The position numbers were made by a program, and so were the translations under genes. The notes beneath the pieces are model-generated. The model saw nothing but the letters and a program-made list of their open reading frames with translations, searched no databases and was not told where the DNA came from. A stretch of DNA of 11,411 nt from positions 1-11,411 of IMG/VR virus record IMGVR_UViG_2713896907_000009; one strand, given 5' to 3'. Shown one piece after another: positions 2,893-7,738 of the stretch; position 1 is the stretch's first letter, and every line of letters starts with the position of its first letter. The DNA comes from a virus. Its lineage: Duplodnaviria; Heunggongvirae; Uroviricota; Caudoviricetes.

Positions 2893-3237
2893 TCAGAACT
2901 CTTCGATGCTCCAGCCACCACCTGCTTTCTTTGGTTTAACCGTTACCCCGATGATTCGGAACGGATACTGATCTGCGGCGACTTTGGTTTTCACCCTGGC
3001 GTCGTCGGTCCAGAAACCTTTCACTTCGTGCAGTTCCATCTCGCCGGTGGCGAGCATCACAGCAAAATCGGGCGTATAGAACGTGTTGTCAGCTAACCGC
3101 AGCTTGATACCCTCAAATCGATACCAGACGATTTCTCCTGCACGTTTACGCAGCTCAAGGTGCTGGCAATACGCAGATTCTGTTTTGTTCATCTGGCCTG
3201 TTTTGAGTCGACCAAGAGCCTGTATCTGTTTTCTCAT
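2893..3237 (-). CDS. DUF1064-like phage protein (114 aa)
   Basis: ORF 2893-3237; pattern ...Y..LELRKRAGEI...YTPDF.V......ELHEVKG......ARVKTKVAADQYPF matches my recollection of the DUF1064 family found beside phage replication genes. SD GAGGT upstream of the ATG lies inside an operator-like palindrome. Confidence 0.6.
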   Translation of the reverse strand: MRKQIQALGRLKTGQMNKTESAYCQHLELRKRAGEIVWYRFEGIKLRLADNTFYTPDFAVMLATGEMELHEVKGFWTDDARVKTKVAADQYPFRIIGVTVKPKKAGGGWSIEEF

Positions 3238-3240
3238 GAT

Positions 3241-3317
3241 TTACCTCTGAGGTAATTAAAAACCACATAAGACATGAAATCAATAGAATTTAGAATATTT
3301 TATTACCCATCAGGTAA
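3241..3317 (-). promoter_or_regulatory. Leftward promoter flanked by two TTACC-N5-GGTAA palindromes (operator-like)
   Basis: Palindromes at 3241-3255 (TTACC TCTGA GGTAA) and 3303-3317 (TTACC CATCA GGTAA). On the minus strand: -35 TTGATT (plus 3283-3278), 17-bp spacer, -10 TTTAAT (plus 3260-3255). One palindrome is 18 nt upstream of the -35; the other abuts the -10 and includes the SD of the 2893-3237 gene. Confidence 0.45.
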
Positions 3318-3354
3318 TTATCGAGGCGTAAAAAAATGCGCTATCGCGCTGGTA

Positions 3355-4140
3355 TTACTTGATAAATCCTGCCGCCTTTCCCCGCCTGTATTCCTCCATC
3401 AGCCACTGCGCTGGTGTTATTCCCCCAAGGGTGGCGGCGTTAGGCATGCACCCGAAACTTCGCCCTGATGGATGGTAAACGTCTCTCCCTGTGTCCGGAG
3501 GTGTACTCATGGGCTCTGGCTTTGCCTGTATGCTGATCACCGGCTCGGGTATCTGCTGTCCGGAAGCCACCTTTTTCGCCCAATCATCGAGCAGCCTGCG
3601 CGCGTGTTTCTCAACCTCAATCTCGCTAAGCTGGCGCTGATACATTGCACGGCGGGTATCACATACGACCCAGTACATAACCGGATGCCGCCACGGGAAT
3701 CTTTCGGGACCACCAGGATATAAACTTTTTTCCTTGCTGTACCGGTGAAACTCCGCCATCACATCGTCAATGGTGACGCCAAGAACCATCTTGCTGTCTT
3801 TACACCACTTGATGAATTGCCCTGGCGACGGCCAGAACGGAGATTCACTGGCGCGGGCGTGGCGCATACCAGCAGAAACCTGTTCACGGGTTCGGATCCC
3901 CCCTTCGGCAAACGCAGCAATCCACTGCTGTTTTGCAGCAACTTCCTGCTCTGGCGTCTTCAGGTTGGTTACCACTGCCGCCGGAAACAGTTGTTTCAAC
4001 TGTTTGAAAAGGGCATCAACAAGCCTCTCTGCTGACATGTTCACCACGTTGTCATTGTTAGTGTACTGATGCTCATAACCTGACATGCGAGAAAGGGCTT
4101 CTCCGTCACGGTTTTGTATCGCGGTAAAAACGTTGTTCAC
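3355..4140 (-). CDS. Replication protein P-like (helicase loader, lambda P family)
   Basis: ORF 3355-4155; segments PFWPSPGQFIKWC, SLYPGGPERFPWRHPVMYWVV and QIPEPV match lambda P as I recall it (PFLPSPGQFVAWC, GLYPDAESYPWKSNAHYWLV, AIPEPV). Start placed at GTG 4140-4138 (GGGAGGA SD 6 nt upstream), overlapping the upstream stop as GTGA. Confidence 0.7.
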   Translation of the reverse strand: MNNVFTAIQNRDGEALSRMSGYEHQYTNNDNVVNMSAERLVDALFKQLKQLFPAAVVTNLKTPEQEVAAKQQWIAAFAEGGIRTREQVSAGMRHARASESPFWPSPGQFIKWCKDSKMVLGVTIDDVMAEFHRYSKEKSLYPGGPERFPWRHPVMYWVVCDTRRAMYQRQLSEIEVEKHARRLLDDWAKKVASGQQIPEPVISIQAKPEPMSTPPDTGRDVYHPSGRSFGCMPNAATLGGITPAQWLMEEYRRGKAAGFIK

Positions 4141-4976
4141 AAGAAATCCTCCCATGCTTCAGGGCTGTTCCAGTGCGGAACGTTGTTATCAGGTAATGTT
4201 GATTGCTTCTGTCTGCTAATCTGCAGCCGCCTTGCCAGCTTCTGCTCCCACTGTGCCTGATGGTATGCCTTACCCTCAGCCATCCAGTAAATTCTGAACT
4301 CTGCAAGTTCCTGTGCCGTTGGCAGACTGTCCAGGTAGATCCCCTGCAATGAGCTTTTCCGAAGAAAGTCATCTGATGGCTGCCATTGTTCATGCATGAC
4401 AAATTTGCCTAATTGCCCTGGCCCACCAGGAGGAACAAAGTTATTCATCACGGCGTTGTTTGCGCCGGGGTCATGAGGCACAGAATCCCCGGCTTTTGTC
4501 CTGCTCTCCCTCTCTTGGTTAAATGACTGGTTATATGACTGGTTCTGGATCCCGTTTTTGGGATCATTCAACATCCCGTTTTTGGGATCATTCAACATCC
4601 CGTTTTTGGGATCATTCAACATCCCGTTTTTGGGTATATTCCCGTTTTCGGGAACATTACCGTTTTCGGGTTCATTGCTCCATTCCCGGTTGCCTTTAAT
4701 GTTCCCGTTTTTGGTTATATTAAGAGAGAAAACCCGCACTCTTTTCGTCGCTCCCTTTCTCTCTCCGGTATCTGAAATAAGCCCCATTTTCATGAGCGAT
4801 ATAAGCCCGGCCTGTACGGTTTTTTTATTCAGGCAAGTGTCTTTAACGAGGCGTTCTATGCTGGGGTAGCAGAGGTTATATTCATCGGCTCTGTCAGCCA
4901 TCGAGAGCAGTATGAGCTTTAATGACGAGCTACCCGGATCTGTCTCCCAGGCCCAATCTGTTGCATGTCTGCTCAT
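4137..4976 (-). CDS. Replication initiator, O-like (N-terminal DNA-binding domain, Asn-rich repeat linker encoded by iterons, C-terminal domain)
   Basis: ORF 4137-4976, ATG 4976 with GGAG SD. Sits immediately upstream of and coupled to the P-like gene. Contains in-frame 8-aa repeats (PKNGMLND x3) encoded by 24-bp direct repeats, as lambda O contains ori. C-terminal region resembles DnaT/O-type replisome-organiser domains (from memory, unverified). Confidence 0.65.
   Translation of the reverse strand: MSRHATDWAWETDPGSSSLKLILLSMADRADEYNLCYPSIERLVKDTCLNKKTVQAGLISLMKMGLISDTGERKGATKRVRVFSLNITKNGNIKGNREWSNEPENGNVPENGNIPKNGMLNDPKNGMLNDPKNGMLNDPKNGIQNQSYNQSFNQERESRTKAGDSVPHDPGANNAVMNNFVPPGGPGQLGKFVMHEQWQPSDDFLRKSSLQGIYLDSLPTAQELAEFRIYWMAEGKAYHQAQWEQKLARRLQISRQKQSTLPDNNVPHWNSPEAWEDFL
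4547..4700. repeat. Iteron array: three perfect 24-bp direct repeats (4561-4632) flanked by degenerate copies; putative phage replication origin inside the O-like gene
   Basis: ggatcattcaacatcccgtttttg repeated exactly at 4561-4584, 4585-4608 and 4609-4632; partial or degenerate copies at 4547-4560 and 4633-4700. Each unit contains the inverted repeat GGGAT/ATCCC. Confidence 0.6.
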
Positions 4977-5026
4977 GATTAATCTCCGCTATCAGCTTGA
5001 ATGTTGTGGGGAGGAATTAATCATGA
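4973..5026. repeat. Inverted repeat (11-bp perfect arms, extendable to about 15 bp) bracketing the O-like start codon and SD
   Basis: tcatgattaat at 4973-4983 and its reverse complement attaatcatga at 5016-5026. The left arm contains the O-like ATG (4976-4974) and is adjacent to its GGAG SD. Confidence 0.5.
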
Positions 5027-5192
5027 TCTGCTTAATCTCTGCCCTGATGCGACGGTTTGATTCCATGGTGCACTCAACACAGTGTCCGTTGTAAACCCAG
5101 CGTTCACTGTCATGTCCGTGCTTACATGGTTTTCCGGTGTAGTAGCGTTTAAGTCCGCGCTTTGCGGCATCAATACGTGTAATGATTTCCAT
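4992..5192 (-). CDS. Small zinc-finger protein (66 aa), function unknown; occupies the position downstream of cro
   Basis: ORF 4992-5255; start assigned to internal ATG 5192 (MEIITRIDAAK...) because the N-terminal extension MIFFLCQHKITVIPILITGLT looks non-coding and runs into the intergenic terminator region. Product has C-x-H-x-H ... C-x2-C spacing (KPCKHGHDSERWVYNGHCVEC). Confidence 0.45.
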   Translation of the reverse strand: MEIITRIDAAKRGLKRYYTGKPCKHGHDSERWVYNGHCVECTMESNRRIRAEIKQIMINSSPQHSS

Positions 5193-5290
5193 GGTAAGCC
5201 CCGTTATTAGTATTGGGATTACGGTTATTTTGTGCTGACACAAAAAAAAGATCAACCAGATTTGGTTTTTTATTACCTTTGAGGTGCGAA

Positions 5291-5321
5291 TAGATATGAA
5301 AAGACCGCCGAGTGGCGGTCT
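5291..5321 (-). terminator. Putative intrinsic terminator downstream of the Cro-like gene (tR1-like position)
   Basis: Perfect 8-bp GC-rich stem agaccgcc / ggcggtct (5302-5309 and 5314-5321) with 4-nt loop; on the minus strand it is followed by TTTTCATATCT. The T-tract is short (4 T), so efficiency is uncertain. Confidence 0.4.
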
Positions 5322-5342
5322 ACAGAGGGTTGTGGCTGGATA

Positions 5343-5573
5343 TCATGAGTAGAAGAAGTATGCCAGTTCTGCTTTTGAGCGCAGCCATTGTCTTGTTTTA
5401 CAGGCTTTAAAAAGCCCATTCATCAATACCTTACCTGGCATTTTGCGCTTACCTGTTAAGTGAGTCTGGATATAGTGACTCGTCGTTCCGGCTTCCTGTG
5501 CGAAGGCTTCACGCTCATCTGGAGTAAGTGCAAGCCAGTGCTTTTTGAAATCGAAATGTCCGTTATCGCTCAT
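5343..5573 (-). CDS. Cro-like small HTH DNA-binding protein (76 aa)
   Basis: ORF 5343-5573, divergent from the repressor gene across an operator-containing region. Segment EAFAQEAGTTSHYIQTHLTGKRKMPGK resembles the HTH of Cro/YdaS-type proteins. SD is weak. Confidence 0.5.
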   Translation of the reverse strand: MSDNGHFDFKKHWLALTPDEREAFAQEAGTTSHYIQTHLTGKRKMPGKVLMNGLFKACKTRQWLRSKAELAYFFYS

Positions 5574-5608
5574 AGCTATTGCCTGATATTTATTTCAGAT
5601 AATAAATA

Positions 5609-5672
5609 TTCACCCATAAGGTAACAAAAATCAAGGATAGTTACCTATGGGGTGCATTTACCTGTTGGGTAA
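5609..5672. promoter_or_regulatory. Divergent promoter/operator region between the Cro-like and repressor genes with three operator-like sites
   Basis: Sites at 5609-5623 (TCACC CATAA GGTAA), 5641-5655 (TTACC TATGG GGTGC) and 5658-5672 (TTACC TGTTG GGTAA, perfect) in an AT-rich 154-bp intergenic region; -35-like TTGATT on the minus strand. I could not place the -10 elements confidently. Confidence 0.5.
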
Positions 5673-5727
5673 TATTGCTTTAAATTGAATCATCTACTGA
5701 TTCATATATGAGGCGATTTTCCAGAAA

Positions 5728-6312
5728 ATGAAAAGTATCCAGGACGTCCGCAGGCAAAATCTCAACGACTTGATCGACCGTGAATTCAATGGTGTTCAGA
5801 CGCGGATGGCAGAAAAACTTGGAACTCAGGCAAATCTGGTAAACCGCTGGGCTCTTGGCAAGAAGGTTATCGGCGACCAGGTTGCGCGAAAAATTGAAGC
5901 TGCCGCCAATAAACCCCGTAACTGGCTTGATATCGATCGCTCGCTTTCTCAGGAAGGTTTTCAGCCTGTCGGACCAAGCGACATTGGTCAGCTGGCGGCT
6001 CACAACCTGGAACGCTGGATGAGCGAAAGCCGCGACCTTTCAACGCAGGGAAAACTTCACCGCGCATCCGGCGTCGCCCAGGTGACAATCAGCCGCCTGT
6101 TAAACAATGAGGTCAGCGTTTCCATTTCCACCCTGGAGAATGTTGCATCAGCATTCGGGCGTCACGGATATGAACTACTGATTCACCCACACGACCCTGC
6201 GACTATCAACTATGACCGCTCGCGCTACGCTTTGTTACCCGAAACCGAGAAAGCAAAGATCGAAAGTTACATTGAATTTGTCATCAACCAGAACGAAAAA
6301 AACAAACAATAA
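5728..6312 (+). CDS. Phage repressor-like protein with two tandem XRE-type HTH domains and no S24 peptidase domain
   Basis: ORF 5728-6312. HTH 1 about aa 25-70 (VQTRMAEKLGTQANLVNRWALGKK...); HTH 2 about aa 105-150 (LHRASGVAQVTISRLLNNEVSVSISTLENVASAF). C-terminus has no Ser/Lys dyad or Ala-Gly cleavage context. Flanked on both sides by TTACC-N5-GGTAA sites. Confidence 0.65.
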   Translation: MKSIQDVRRQNLNDLIDREFNGVQTRMAEKLGTQANLVNRWALGKKVIGDQVARKIEAAANKPRNWLDIDRSLSQEGFQPVGPSDIGQLAAHNLERWMSESRDLSTQGKLHRASGVAQVTISRLLNNEVSVSISTLENVASAFGRHGYELLIHPHDPATINYDRSRYALLPETEKAKIESYIEFVINQNEKNKQ

Positions 6313-6332
6313 AATCATATTTTTCAGTAAGT

Positions 6333-6358
6333 AAGCCGCCTTCTGGCGGCTTTTTTAT
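6333..6358 (+). terminator. Rho-independent terminator downstream of the repressor gene
   Basis: Perfect 8-bp stem aagccgcc / ggcggctt (6333-6340 and 6345-6352), 4-nt loop ttct, followed by a T-tract (TTTTTTATT). Confidence 0.7.
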
Positions 6359-6368
6359 TGCCTATTTG

Positions 6369-6446
6369 ATTACCTATCGGGTAATTTTTTTAACTCATAT
6401 CTATTGACATCAAACCAAATACGCATAATCATTACCTAAACGGTAA
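6369..6446 (+). promoter_or_regulatory. Rightward early promoter (PL-like) flanked by two TTACC-N5-GGTAA operator-like palindromes
   Basis: Sites at 6369-6385 (ATTACC TATCG GGTAAT) and 6432-6446 (TTACC TAAAC GGTAA), plus a GGTAA half-site at 6456-6460 that overlaps the SD of the first gene. Consensus -35 TTGACA at 6404-6409; the best -10 candidate CATAAT (6424-6429) gives a short 14-bp spacer, so the exact -10 is uncertain. Confidence 0.5.
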
Positions 6447-6465
6447 CAAACCGAGGTAACAAGTT

Positions 6466-6920: not shown

Positions 6921-7738
6921 AACCGGGAATTTATTTCGACATCAGCAACGAAGACTACCACGCAGGTGACGGCGTGAGTAAGTCGCAACTGGACATGGTT
7001 GCCAAGAATCCGGCGCTTCTTAAATGGGTTCAGGCAGCACCAGAAGACGAAGAGAAAAAGTCTGCACTGGATATGGGAACCGCATTGCACTGCCTGCTTC
7101 TGGAACCTGGAGAATTCGACAAACGCTTCATCGTTTCACCGAAATTCGATCGTCGGACAAAACAAGGTAAAGCTGACGAAGAAGCATTTCTTCGTGATGT
7201 GGCGGATATGGGTATTACGGTACTTGATGTCGAGCAGTGGCGAAAACTGGAGCTGATGCGTGATAGCGCAATGGCTCATCCGGCGGCACGCTGGATGTTG
7301 GAAGCACCTGGTTACTGCGAAGCATCAATGTACTGGAACGATGAAGAGACGGGTGAGTTGTGCCGAATTCGTCCAGACAAATGGCTGAACGAGCACAACG
7401 TGATCGTCGACGTGAAAAAGGTTGCAGATATGGACCGTTTTGCACGCCACATCGAGGAATTCCGCTACCACGTGCAGGACGCAATGTACCGCGAAGGCGC
7501 AATGAGGGTTACTGGTCAGCCGCATGGTTTTTTCTTTCTTGCCGTGAGCGAAAGCATTGATTGTGGTCGGTATCCGGTACGCGTGTTCGAGCTGGATGCG
7601 CCGGATGTCGATGCCGGGCACGCTCTGTTCCGCCGGGATCTGAATACCTATCACGAATGCCGCATCAACGATGAGTGGGGCGGAGTGGAAATTATTAAAC
7701 GCCCTGACTGGGCACGTAAACAGGATATGTACGTATGA
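6917..7738 (+). CDS. PD-(D/E)XK family exonuclease (phage recombination exonuclease, RecB-like nuclease fold)
   Basis: ORF 6917-7738. Motifs in order: IRPDKW (D), VIVDVKK (D-x-K), QDAMYREG (QxxxY), the arrangement of RecB/Cas4-type PD-(D/E)XK nucleases. Coupled (ATGA) to the downstream Bet-like gene. Confidence 0.7.
   Translation: MKPGIYFDISNEDYHAGDGVSKSQLDMVAKNPALLKWVQAAPEDEEKKSALDMGTALHCLLLEPGEFDKRFIVSPKFDRRTKQGKADEEAFLRDVADMGITVLDVEQWRKLELMRDSAMAHPAARWMLEAPGYCEASMYWNDEETGELCRIRPDKWLNEHNVIVDVKKVADMDRFARHIEEFRYHVQDAMYREGAMRVTGQPHGFFFLAVSESIDCGRYPVRVFELDAPDVDAGHALFRRDLNTYHECRINDEWGGVEIIKRPDWARKQDMYV

What the first reader, a model, noticed from the sequence alone, without database searches (positions are those of the whole stretch)
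3241..6446. Two distant promoters share identical operator geometry
Leftward promoter upstream of the DUF1064 gene: operator 3303-3317, 18 nt, -35 TTGATT (3283-3278), then 22 nt to the second operator (3255-3241), which abuts the -10 TTTAAT. Rightward promoter after the repressor gene: operator 6369-6385, 18 nt, -35 TTGACA (6404-6409), 22 nt, operator 6432-6446. The same 18-nt and 22-nt spacings on opposite strands about 3 kb apart argue for a shared regulatory module with both sites bound cooperatively. It also implies that the accessory operon downstream of the replication genes (3237 down to 1) has its own repressor-controlled promoter rather than relying only on read-through.
Basis: seen in the sequence. 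Interest (0 to 1): 0.55.

Follow-up and report, generated by a model that had tools for sequence, protein, structure and literature searches.

The report
Paired repressor operators at two prophage promoters
Two promoter regions 3 kb apart in an epsilon15/phiV10-like E. coli prophage each carry two binding sites for the phage repressor exactly 62 bp apart around the -35 box; the layout is real and conserved across the phage genus, but it belongs to a repressor system whose sites and structure are already partly described.

Summary
Four perfect TTACC-N5-GGTAA palindromes lie at 3241-3255, 3303-3317, 6370-6384 and 6432-6446. In both pairs the centres are 62 bp apart. A TTGAnn hexamer sits 19 nt after the distal core and 22 nt before the proximal core.

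The window is the early/immunity region of a phiV10/epsilon15-like (Uetakevirus) prophage. Its 194-aa repressor is a full-length homologue of SPC32H Rep (PDB 5D50), a tetrameric repressor inactivated by an antirepressor.

The two modules recur in all 12 GenBank relatives examined and in about 200 distinct IMG/VR sequences. 62-63 bp accounts for 104 of 125 distinct site pairs in the range scanned.

The rightward module is a good sigma-70 promoter (TTGACA-17-AATCAT), the PL equivalent. The leftward module follows a weak hairpin plus T-run after the P-like gene. Its proximal operator contains the DUF1064 ribosome-binding site. Its -10 (TTTAAT) lacks the key A, so promoter activity is plausible but unproven.

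The epsilon15 GenBank record already annotates repressor-binding sites at both places. This is a new member of a known kind, and one Rep tetramer bridging sites near -62 and +1 is the likely mechanism.

The parts
3303..3317 (-). Distal operator of the leftward module (TTACCTGATGGGTAA on the minus strand), centred about 62 bp upstream of the inferred start
   Evidence: Perfect motif match. Perfect in all 12 relatives. The homologous site is annotated 'protein_bind repressor' in epsilon15.
3295..3302 (-). A/T tract TAAAATAT directly downstream of the distal operator; possible UP element
   Evidence: Conserved in the consensus of 63 distinct leftward-type modules. The UP-element role is inference.
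3278..3283 (-). -35-like hexamer TTGATT, 19 nt after the distal core and 22 nt before the proximal core
   Evidence: TTGAnn is at this offset in all 12 GenBank relatives. Among 107 distinct modules selected for TTGA at this offset, 74 read TTGATT.
3255..3260 (-). Candidate -10 hexamer TTTAAT (17-bp spacer); 5 of 6 consensus matches but no A at position 2
   Evidence: Not called by the consensus scan. Salmonella and Klebsiella relatives have TAAATT at an 18-bp spacer.
3241..3255 (-). Proximal operator of the leftward module (TTACCTCAGAGGTAA); contains the Shine-Dalgarno AGAGG (3248-3244) of the DUF1064 gene, whose ATG is at 3237
   Evidence: Perfect in all 12 relatives. Not annotated in the epsilon15 record.
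3330..3349 (-). Short hairpin GCGC-GATA-GCGC followed by T7, just after the P-like gene stop codon; a weak intrinsic terminator
   Evidence: Stem and T-run are invariant in 12 relatives while the loop varies. Annotated as a putative terminator in phiV10. Folding gives only -8.4 kcal/mol, z = -1.55.
2893..3237 (-). DUF1064 gene, first gene of the accessory (Ead/Ea22-type) operon
   Evidence: Pfam PF06356, E = 2.9e-7; phiV10 annotation.
3355..4155 (-). Lambda P-like replication gene upstream of the leftward module
   Evidence: Pfam PF06992, E = 1e-56.
5610..5672 (.). Divergent-promoter operator triple: 5610-5624 (1 mismatch), 5641-5655 (2 mismatches) and 5658-5672 (perfect), spaced 31 + 17 bp. 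It lies between the cro-like gene and the repressor gene. A PR-like TTGTTA-17-TATTAT overlaps the first site.
   Evidence: The 30/31 + 17 spacing is conserved in 11 of the 12 sequences examined; L213 and L214 keep the outer two sites, whose listing stops at one mismatch.
5728..6312 (+). Repressor gene (194 aa, HTH domains, no peptidase domain); homologue of SPC32H Rep
   Evidence: PDB 5D50, E = 4e-42 over residues 1-190. Pfam finds HTH_3 only.
6333..6352 (+). Strong intrinsic terminator after the repressor gene
   Evidence: Folding gives -21 kcal/mol, z = -5.26.
6370..6384 (+). Distal operator of the rightward (PL-like) module
   Evidence: The homologous site is annotated in epsilon15.
6404..6432 (+). 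PL-like sigma-70 promoter TTGACA-17-AATCAT
   Evidence: 10 of 12 consensus matches. 89 of 95 distinct modules carry TTGACA or TTGACT, and 93 of 95 have a -10 with A2 and T6 at a 17-bp spacer.
6432..6446 (+). Proximal operator of the rightward module, covering the last -10 base and the inferred start site
   Evidence: The homologous site is annotated in epsilon15.

Best explanation
The four palindromes are operators of the prophage's Rep repressor. This is the tetrameric, antirepressor-inactivated type first described for Salmonella phage SPC32H.

Each of two early promoters is built on one template:
- a distal operator centred near -62;
- an A/T tract;
- a -35 hexamer;
- a proximal operator centred on the transcription start, overlapping the last base of the -10.

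The two promoters are the PL equivalent (6404-6432, plus strand) and a secondary promoter between the P-like replication gene and the DUF1064/Ead accessory operon (3283-3255, minus strand).

In the lysogen, one Rep tetramer most likely contacts both operators on the same DNA face. 62 bp is about 5.9 helical turns. This would clamp or loop the -35 and UP region and occlude the -10 and start site, shutting both promoters. When the SOS-controlled antirepressor splits the tetramer, both promoters open together with the main early promoter.

The leftward promoter probably supplements transcripts that read through the weak terminator after the P-like gene.

Shown here: the sites, their statistics, the geometry, its conservation, and the repressor homology. 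Inferred: Rep binding at these sites, tetramer bridging, start sites, and activity of the leftward promoter.
For: - Motif enrichment: 6 matches against 0.14 expected. In the epsilon15 genome, 11 perfect sites against 0.08 expected.
- Both pairs are 62 bp apart, with -35 offsets of 19 and 22 nt.
- All 12 GenBank relatives from E. coli, Salmonella, Enterobacter and Klebsiella keep 62 bp on the leftward side and 62 or 63 bp on the PL side.
- In an IMG/VR scan unbiased for 45-75 bp, 93 distinct pairs are at 62 bp, 11 at 63 bp and 21 at all other spacings.
- The leftward module is kept when the flanking genes differ. The downstream gene is DUF1064 or a RuvC-like gene. The upstream gene is P-like, DnaT-like or another replication gene. 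The epsilon15 blast hit covers only window 3235-3349.
- Spacer sequences of the two modules are barely similar (P = 0.03-0.37). The geometry is therefore maintained by constraint, not by recent duplication.
- The repressor is a full-length homologue of SPC32H Rep (5D50, E = 4e-42). The tetramer-interface aromatics Phe187 and Phe190 named in PMC9986798 align to Tyr and Phe.
- Rep is described as binding DNA as a tetramer whose DNA-binding dimer pairs come from different dimers, with one tetramer sufficient for repression (PMC9638917). Its middle dimerization-domain (MDD) pairs, from which the DNA-binding domains extend, lie about 100 Å apart on a p53-like tetramerization domain, a fold that paper links to DNA looping in pLS20 Rco and p53 (PMC9986798).
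- The epsilon15 record annotates repressor sites at the homologous PL pair and at the distal leftward site.
- The PL module scores 10 of 12 as a sigma-70 promoter.
Against: - No binding, footprint or transcription-start data could be obtained. The primary papers (Kropinski 2007; Kim and Ryu 2013; Kim et al. 2016) are not in the held library.
- The leftward -10 in this window lacks the -11 A. It fails the consensus scan, as do 68 of 107 distinct modules.
- A start about 7 nt after that -10 would leave only an 11-nt leader beginning at the Shine-Dalgarno sequence.
- All homologues found, down to 54% repressor identity, use the same half-site. No covariation between repressor specificity and operator sequence could be tested.
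- The many sequences sharing 62 bp are homologous, not independent.
- A Serratia relative uses 18 bp and 75 bp instead, so 62 bp is not obligatory for the family.
Confidence: 0.62

Rival explanations
1. The leftward pair (3241-3317) is bound by Rep, but there is no promoter there. The pair acts as a roadblock or safety lock. It stops leaky read-through transcripts from the main early promoter that pass the weak terminator, keeping the accessory operon silent in lysogens. The TTGATT hexamer is incidental or a relic.
For: - The -10 lacks the -11 A in this window and in most E. coli-type modules.
- The upstream hairpin is weak, so read-through is expected.
- The proximal operator lies directly on the ribosome-binding site and 4 nt from the ATG, leaving almost no leader for a transcript started here.
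Against: - TTGAnn sits at a fixed 19/22-nt offset in 12 of 12 relatives and in the 107 IMG/VR modules selected for it. That is the same offset as in the strong PL promoter.
- An A/T tract lies where an UP element would be.
- Salmonella and Klebsiella versions have a usable TAAATT -10 at an 18-bp spacer.
- A roadblock alone does not need two sites flanking a -35 at this exact geometry.
Confidence: 0.2
2. The operator pairs work mainly as anchors for long-range loops between the three operator regions (about 3.3 kb, 5.6 kb and 6.4 kb in the window). This would resemble lambda OL-OR looping, with higher-order Rep oligomers. The local 62-bp spacing would be secondary.
For: - Three operator clusters lie 0.75 and 2.3 kb apart.
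- Crystal packing of SPC32H Rep shows tetramer-tetramer contacts compatible with octamers (PMC9986798).
Against: - The strict 62/63-bp conservation within each pair is what short-range bridging predicts. It is not required for kilobase loops.
- The distances between clusters vary among relatives because the genes between them differ.
- The literature available describes one tetramer as sufficient for repression (PMC9638917).
Confidence: 0.1
3. The identical geometry is only inherited. One module is a duplicate of the other, and the spacing carries no functional meaning beyond two independent repressor sites.
For: Both modules share CTA-TTGA and an A/T tract. Spacer identity in the window is slightly above chance (19 of 41, P = 0.03).
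Against: - Spacer similarity is marginal to absent in other lineages (P = 0.07 and 0.37).
- The length is nevertheless kept to within 1 bp in about 200 distinct sequences whose spacers have diverged by substitution. That argues for selection on length.
Confidence: 0.08

Closest known systems
Repressor-binding sites annotated in Salmonella phage epsilon15 (GenBank AY150271.2 / NC_004775.2; Kropinski et al. 2007)
   Same: Same half-sites (TTACC-N5-GGTAA) at the homologous positions. Three sites follow the repressor gene, two of them 62 bp apart, and one lies between the replication gene and the next gene. The gene order is the same.
   Different: - The record annotates only the distal leftward site, not the proximal one on the ribosome-binding site. 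It annotates no promoters and does not note the shared geometry.
- epsilon15 has a third PL site 76 bp downstream that this window lacks.
- The downstream gene is RuvC-like rather than DUF1064.
SPC32H Rep-Ant lytic switch (PDB 5D50, 5D4Z; Kim and Ryu 2013; Kim et al. 2016)
   Same: The window's repressor aligns over its full length (E = 4e-42). SPC32H carries the same two 62-bp operator pairs and the same operator triple. Rep has no autocleavage domain.
   Different: About 50% protein identity. The antirepressor gene and its LexA box lie outside this window and were not examined for this prophage. Whether the published work mapped these particular operator pairs could not be checked, because the papers are not held.
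Lambda OL/PL and OR/PR operators
   Same: Same overall map: repressor gene transcribed toward PL, a divergent promoter region with three operators, and an early operon carrying cro-like, initiator and P-like genes.
   Different: - Lambda operators are adjacent (about 24 bp apart) and overlap the -35 and -10. They are bound by RecA-cleavable CI dimers that pair up.
- Here two operators 62 bp apart flank the -35, and the repressor is a tetramer with no peptidase domain.
- Lambda has no repressor-controlled promoter after gene P; it uses N antitermination.
Short-loop tetrameric repressors: pLS20 Rco (operators 75 bp apart), LacI O1-O3 (92 bp), GalR
   Same: A tetramer with two DNA-binding heads and two operators a near-integral number of helical turns apart around a promoter. 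Rep's C-terminal tetramerization domain has the same fold as that of Rco and p53 (PMC9986798).
   Different: Looping by Rep has not been shown. At 62 bp the loop would be shorter than in these examples (LacI and GalR figures are from general knowledge). The Rco operators are arrays of direct repeats, not single palindromes.

Membership tests
Uetakevirus (epsilon15/SPC32H-type) Rep operators | 15/17-bp palindrome (A)TTACC-N5-GGTAA(T) | tested here: met
   Four perfect sites in the finding, plus two more (one perfect, one with a single mismatch) at the divergent promoter region. 6 matches against 0.14 expected.
Uetakevirus (epsilon15/SPC32H-type) Rep operators | Positional homology to sites annotated as repressor-binding in epsilon15 | tested here: met
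   The blastn hit of window 3235-3349 falls on the epsilon15 intergenic region carrying the annotated site. The PL pair also corresponds.
Uetakevirus (epsilon15/SPC32H-type) Rep operators | Cognate Rep-family repressor encoded next to the operators | tested here: met
   Window 5728-6312 against PDB 5D50: E = 4e-42, residues 1-190.
Uetakevirus (epsilon15/SPC32H-type) Rep operators | Physical binding of Rep to the sites | not testable with these tools
   Needs EMSA, footprinting or ChIP. The primary papers are not held.
Sigma-70 promoter (rightward, PL-like) | -35 and -10 hexamers with a 16-18 bp spacer, A at position 2 and T at position 6 of the -10 | tested here: met
   TTGACA-17-AATCAT, 10 of 12 matches. 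Conserved in 93 of 95 distinct modules.
Sigma-70 promoter (leftward, upstream of DUF1064) | -35 and -10 hexamers with a 16-18 bp spacer, A at position 2 and T at position 6 of the -10 | tested here: inconclusive
   TTGATT is present and conserved. The -10 is TTTAAT (17-bp spacer) or TTAATT (18-bp spacer), both lacking A2, and the scan does not call it. 37 of 107 distinct relatives have TAAATT with A2 and T6.
Sigma-70 promoter (both) | Mapped transcription start site | not testable with these tools
   No transcriptome or 5' RACE data are available in the tools.
Lambda CI-type immunity (RecA-cleavable repressor) | C-terminal S24 peptidase/autocleavage domain | tested here: not met
   Pfam finds only HTH families in the 194-aa protein. 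The closest structure is the antirepressor-controlled Rep.
DNA-looping tetrameric repressor | Tetramerization interface present | tested here: inconclusive
   The C-terminal region aligns to SPC32H Rep. Phe187 and Phe190 (PMC9986798) align to Tyr and Phe. The oligomeric state of this protein was not modelled or measured.
DNA-looping tetrameric repressor | Two operators in helical phase around the promoter | tested here: met
   62 bp is about 5.9 turns at 10.5 bp per turn. 62-63 bp accounts for 104 of 125 distinct pairs in the 45-75 bp range.
DNA-looping tetrameric repressor | Loop formation or spacing-dependent cooperativity demonstrated | not testable with these tools
   Needs spacing mutants, TPM/AFM, or DNase hypersensitivity patterns.

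The most novel reading that the evidence does not exclude
The genus-wide, length-invariant 62-bp operator pair flanking the -35 may be the DNA counterpart of the 'trans' Rep tetramer. One tetramer per promoter would bridge sites near -62 and +1, forming one of the shortest repression loops known. The antirepressor would open it by splitting the tetramer.

epsilon15-like phages would then run their early genes as a chain of 'terminator plus Rep-gated promoter' units instead of a lambda-style antitermination cascade. A third, degenerate unit lies at 5227-5287.
Probability: 0.4. Interest if true: 0.5.

Novelty: new member of a known kind. Interest (0 to 1): 0.3.

Why it matters
The result gives a precise, testable DNA template for how the SPC32H-type tetrameric repressor shuts promoters. 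The template is two operators 62 bp apart, with -35 offsets of 19 and 22 nt. A recent structural paper says the repression mechanism 'has not been extensively characterized' (PMC9986798).

It also suggests that phiV10/epsilon15-like prophages control their accessory genes directly through the immunity repressor rather than only by read-through. These prophages are very common in E. coli: 80 of the 80 IMG/VR loci kept carry an identical repressor.

For annotation, the proximal operator on the DUF1064 or RuvC-like gene's ribosome-binding site is missing from the epsilon15 reference record. No operators are annotated in phiV10.

None of this overturns current understanding.

Tried and rejected
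1. Primary literature. Kropinski 2007 (PMC2698709 and DOI), Kim and Ryu 2013 (PMC3807360) and Kim et al. 2016 (PMC4983836 and DOI) are not held. A full-text search for the half-site strings found nothing relevant. The ZX5 paper mentions operators only generically.

2. Covariation test with heteroimmune relatives. Rep homologues down to 54% identity (Serratia, Raoultella, E. coli) all keep the TTACC half-site, so no specificity switch was available. The search for related loci with the repressor returned only 100%-identical copies.

3. Alternative leftward promoter from the scan: TCGATA-16-TAAAAT at 3324-3297, with the distal operator as spacer. Rejected because its -35 position is not conserved among relatives, whereas TAAAATAT is. 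That tract is better read as an A/T tract or UP element of the downstream promoter.

4. Do the other epsilon15 Rep sites (terminase, portal, tailspike/gp19, holin, int) share the -35 geometry? They do not. They are single sites in other contexts, so the template is specific to the two early promoters.

5. Recent duplication of one module as the sole cause of the shared geometry. Spacer similarity is marginal.

6. The hairpin after the P-like gene as a strong terminator. It has only a 4-bp stem (z = -1.55), so it is treated as weak or partial.

Full report
**What is in the sequence**

The window contains six matches to TTACC-N5-GGTAA with at most one mismatch, against 0.14 expected from dinucleotide shuffles.
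- The other two (5610-5624 and 5658-5672), plus a degenerate third (5641-5655), lie between the cro-like gene and the repressor gene.

A TTGAnn hexamer lies 19 nt after the distal 15-bp core and 22 nt before the proximal core. The hexamers are TTGATT at 3283-3278 (minus strand) and TTGACA at 6404-6409 (plus strand).

The claimed equality of geometry is correct.

**What the window is**

The window is 96-98% identical to phiV10, phiv142-3, TL-2011b and other E. coli members of the genus Uetakevirus (epsilon15-like podophages).

| Strand | Coordinates | Gene or feature | Evidence |
|---|---|---|---|
| minus | 5343-5573 | cro-like gene | |
| minus | 5302-5321 | strong terminator | |
| minus | 4992-5192 | small gene | |
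| minus | 4137-4976 | HTH_36/DnaT-type initiator, with iterons inside | |
| minus | 3355-4155 | lambda P-like gene | |
| minus | 2893-3237 | DUF1064 gene | |
| minus | downstream of 2893 | Ead/Ea22-type accessory genes | |
| plus | 5728-6312 | repressor (194 aa) | |
| plus | 6333-6352 | strong terminator | |
| plus | from 6466 | operon leading to RecE/RecT-type genes | |

The rightward module is therefore the PL equivalent of a lambda-like map.

The repressor is a full-length homologue of SPC32H Rep (PDB 5D50, E = 4e-42). It has HTH domains but no peptidase domain.

Papers that could be read describe SPC32H Rep as follows.
- It binds DNA as a tetramer, and its DNA-binding dimer pairs come from different dimers.
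- It is dismantled by a tetrameric antirepressor, and one tetramer is sufficient for repression (PMC9638917).
- Its middle dimerization-domain pairs, from which the DNA-binding domains extend, lie about 100 Å apart on a p53-like tetramerization domain. That paper links the fold to DNA looping in pLS20 Rco and p53.
- Its repression mechanism 'has not been extensively characterized' (PMC9986798).

**Conservation**

Twelve sequences were compared: the window and eleven GenBank phages (phiV10, phiv142-3, epsilon15, SPC32H, BUCT554, Tyrion, Kp4865-1, ST512-KPC3phi13.3, BUCT711, PAT1 and ST11-OXA245phi3.2).
- The leftward pair is exactly 62 bp apart in all twelve.
- The PL pair is 62 bp apart, or 63 bp in the four Klebsiella phages.
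- The divergent-promoter triple is spaced 30/31 + 17 bp in eleven of the twelve; phiv142-3 lacks the perfect....

The leftward module has a constant build:
1. a GCGC-N4-GCGC hairpin plus T7 after the upstream gene;
2. the distal operator;
3. TAAAATAT;
4. CTA-TTGAnn;
5. a conserved TGTGG/TATGG;
6. an A/T-rich stretch;
7. the proximal operator, which contains the Shine-Dalgarno sequence;
8. the ATG, 3-5 nt later.

It persists when the flanking genes are replaced. The downstream gene is RuvC-like instead of DUF1064 in epsilon15, Tyrion and PAT1, and the upstream replication genes also differ. The epsilon15 blast hit covers only window 3235-3349.

IMG/VR was scanned for two perfect sites separated by a 30-60 nt gap. 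Among distinct pair sequences, 93 are at 62 bp, 11 at 63 bp and 21 at all other distances in that range.

After adding 80 loci found through the repressor, there are 107 distinct leftward-type and 95 distinct PL-type modules.

Spacer sequences of the two module types are only marginally similar (P = 0.03, 0.07 and 0.37 in three lineages). Length is therefore conserved while sequence is not.

More distant repressor homologues were also checked.
- An E. coli prophage (59% identity) and a Raoultella prophage (54%) keep the same half-site and the 62/62 layout.
- A Serratia prophage (54%) keeps the half-site but uses 18 bp and 75 bp.

No relative with a different operator specificity was found, so repressor-operator covariation could not be tested.

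**Are they promoters?**

The PL module is TTGACA-17-AATCAT, 10 of 12 consensus matches. 93 of 95 distinct versions have a -10 with A at position 2 and T at position 6 at a 17-bp spacer. With that register, the proximal operator is centred on about +1 and the distal one on about -62.

The leftward module has TTGATT. Its best -10 is TTTAAT (17-bp spacer; 5 of 6 matches, no A at position 2) or TTAATT (18-bp spacer).
- The scan does not call it.
- Thirty-seven of 107 distinct relatives, mainly Salmonella and Klebsiella types, have TAAATT at 18 bp, which carries both key bases.
- A start there would give a leader of about 11 nt that begins at the Shine-Dalgarno sequence.
- The hairpin upstream has only a 4-bp stem (-8.4 kcal/mol, z = -1.55). 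Read-through from the main early promoter is therefore likely as well.

I rate Rep binding at all four sites as very likely (about 0.9). I rate a functional, Rep-gated leftward promoter as likely but unproven (about 0.6).

**What is already known**

The epsilon15 GenBank record (AY150271.2) carries 'protein_bind: repressor / lysogeny' features at these places:
- three sites after the repressor gene, two of them 62 bp apart;
- the distal leftward site;
- sites upstream of the terminase, portal and tailspike genes.

It does not annotate the proximal leftward site, the divergent-promoter triple, any promoter, or the shared geometry. phiV10 annotates the terminators but no operators.

The other epsilon15 sites are single and lack the -35 geometry. 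The template is specific to the two early promoters.

I could not read the three primary papers. I therefore cannot exclude that the operator pairs were mapped there.

**Mechanism proposed**

One Rep tetramer contacts both operators of a module on one DNA face. 62 bp is about 5.9 helical turns. This encloses the A/T tract and the -35, and covers the -10 and start site. Antirepressor-driven splitting of the tetramer then frees both promoters.

Established here are the sites, their geometry, its conservation and the repressor homology. Bridging, start sites and promoter strength are inference.

Rivals, with my estimates:
- a roadblock without a leftward promoter (0.2);
- kilobase looping between the operator clusters (0.1);
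- inherited geometry with no function (0.08).

**Verdict**

It is a new member of a known kind: Rep operators of epsilon15-like phages. Its modest added value is the explicit two-operator template shared by two promoters. Interest 0.3.

Noticed in passing
window 4516-4676: Tandem repeats inside the HTH_36/DnaT-type initiator gene: a 24-bp unit in 3.6 copies at 100% identity (4549-4634), an 18-bp unit in 3.1 copies (4622-4676), and a 12-bp unit in 2.4 copies (4516-4544). They look like iterons of a replication origin placed inside the initiator gene, as in lambda O.
   Followed up: no
window 5227-5287 (minus strand): Just after the cro-like gene's terminator lies a degenerate operator, GCACCTCAAAGGTAA (5273-5287). 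It is followed by TTGATC (5255-5250), 17 nt, then CAAAAT (5232-5227), ahead of the small gene starting at 5192. A site at this position is present in 11 of the 12 phages aligned, and 10 of them keep the TTGATC...CAAAAT arrangement downstream of it (BUCT554 differs). This may be a third 'terminator plus Rep-gated promoter' unit.
   Followed up: partly
window 3263-3267 (minus strand TGTGG): A TGTGG/TATGG motif in the -35/-10 spacer of the leftward module is conserved across the genus. It is not in register for an extended -10 element. Its function is unknown.
   Followed up: no
window 5610-5672: The divergent-promoter operator triple has a conserved 30/31 + 17 bp spacing in 11 of the 12 phages compared. 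The PR-like TTGTTA-17-TATTAT overlaps the first site. The two closest sites are nearly abutting, a different geometry from the 62-bp pairs.
   Followed up: partly
window 3244-3248 and 6453-6459: The operator half-site GGTAA doubles as part of a strong ribosome-binding context, GAGGTAA. It lies inside the proximal leftward operator and also occurs as a lone half-site before the first PL gene.
   Followed up: no
L012 (epsilon15) 19850-19911: A perfect LexA-box-like palindrome, TACTGTATAAACATACAGTA, lies next to a Rep site (19896-19910) between gp19 (minus strand) and the tailspike gene. gp19 may be the antirepressor gene known from SPC32H, apparently under both LexA and Rep control.
   Followed up: no
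L012 (epsilon15) 24704-24718 and 35969-35983: Two perfect Rep-type sites are not annotated in the epsilon15 record. One lies between the serotype-conversion genes and the gp23/holin cluster. The other is the proximal leftward operator on the RuvC-like gene's ribosome-binding site.
   Followed up: partly
L212 (Serratia prophage) 3721-3753 and 6923-7012: A relative with 54% repressor identity keeps the half-site but not the 62-bp template. It has two adjacent sites (18 bp apart) in the region corresponding to the leftward module and a 75-bp pair (about 7 helical turns) after the repressor gene.
   Followed up: no
L001 10330-10344 and L002 11786-11800 (phiV10, phiv142-3; beyond the window's right end): A one-mismatch site, ATACCTTTAAGGTAA, lies upstream of the integrase gene in close relatives, and also in L214. 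This suggests Rep also touches int expression. The corresponding DNA is outside the window.
   Followed up: no
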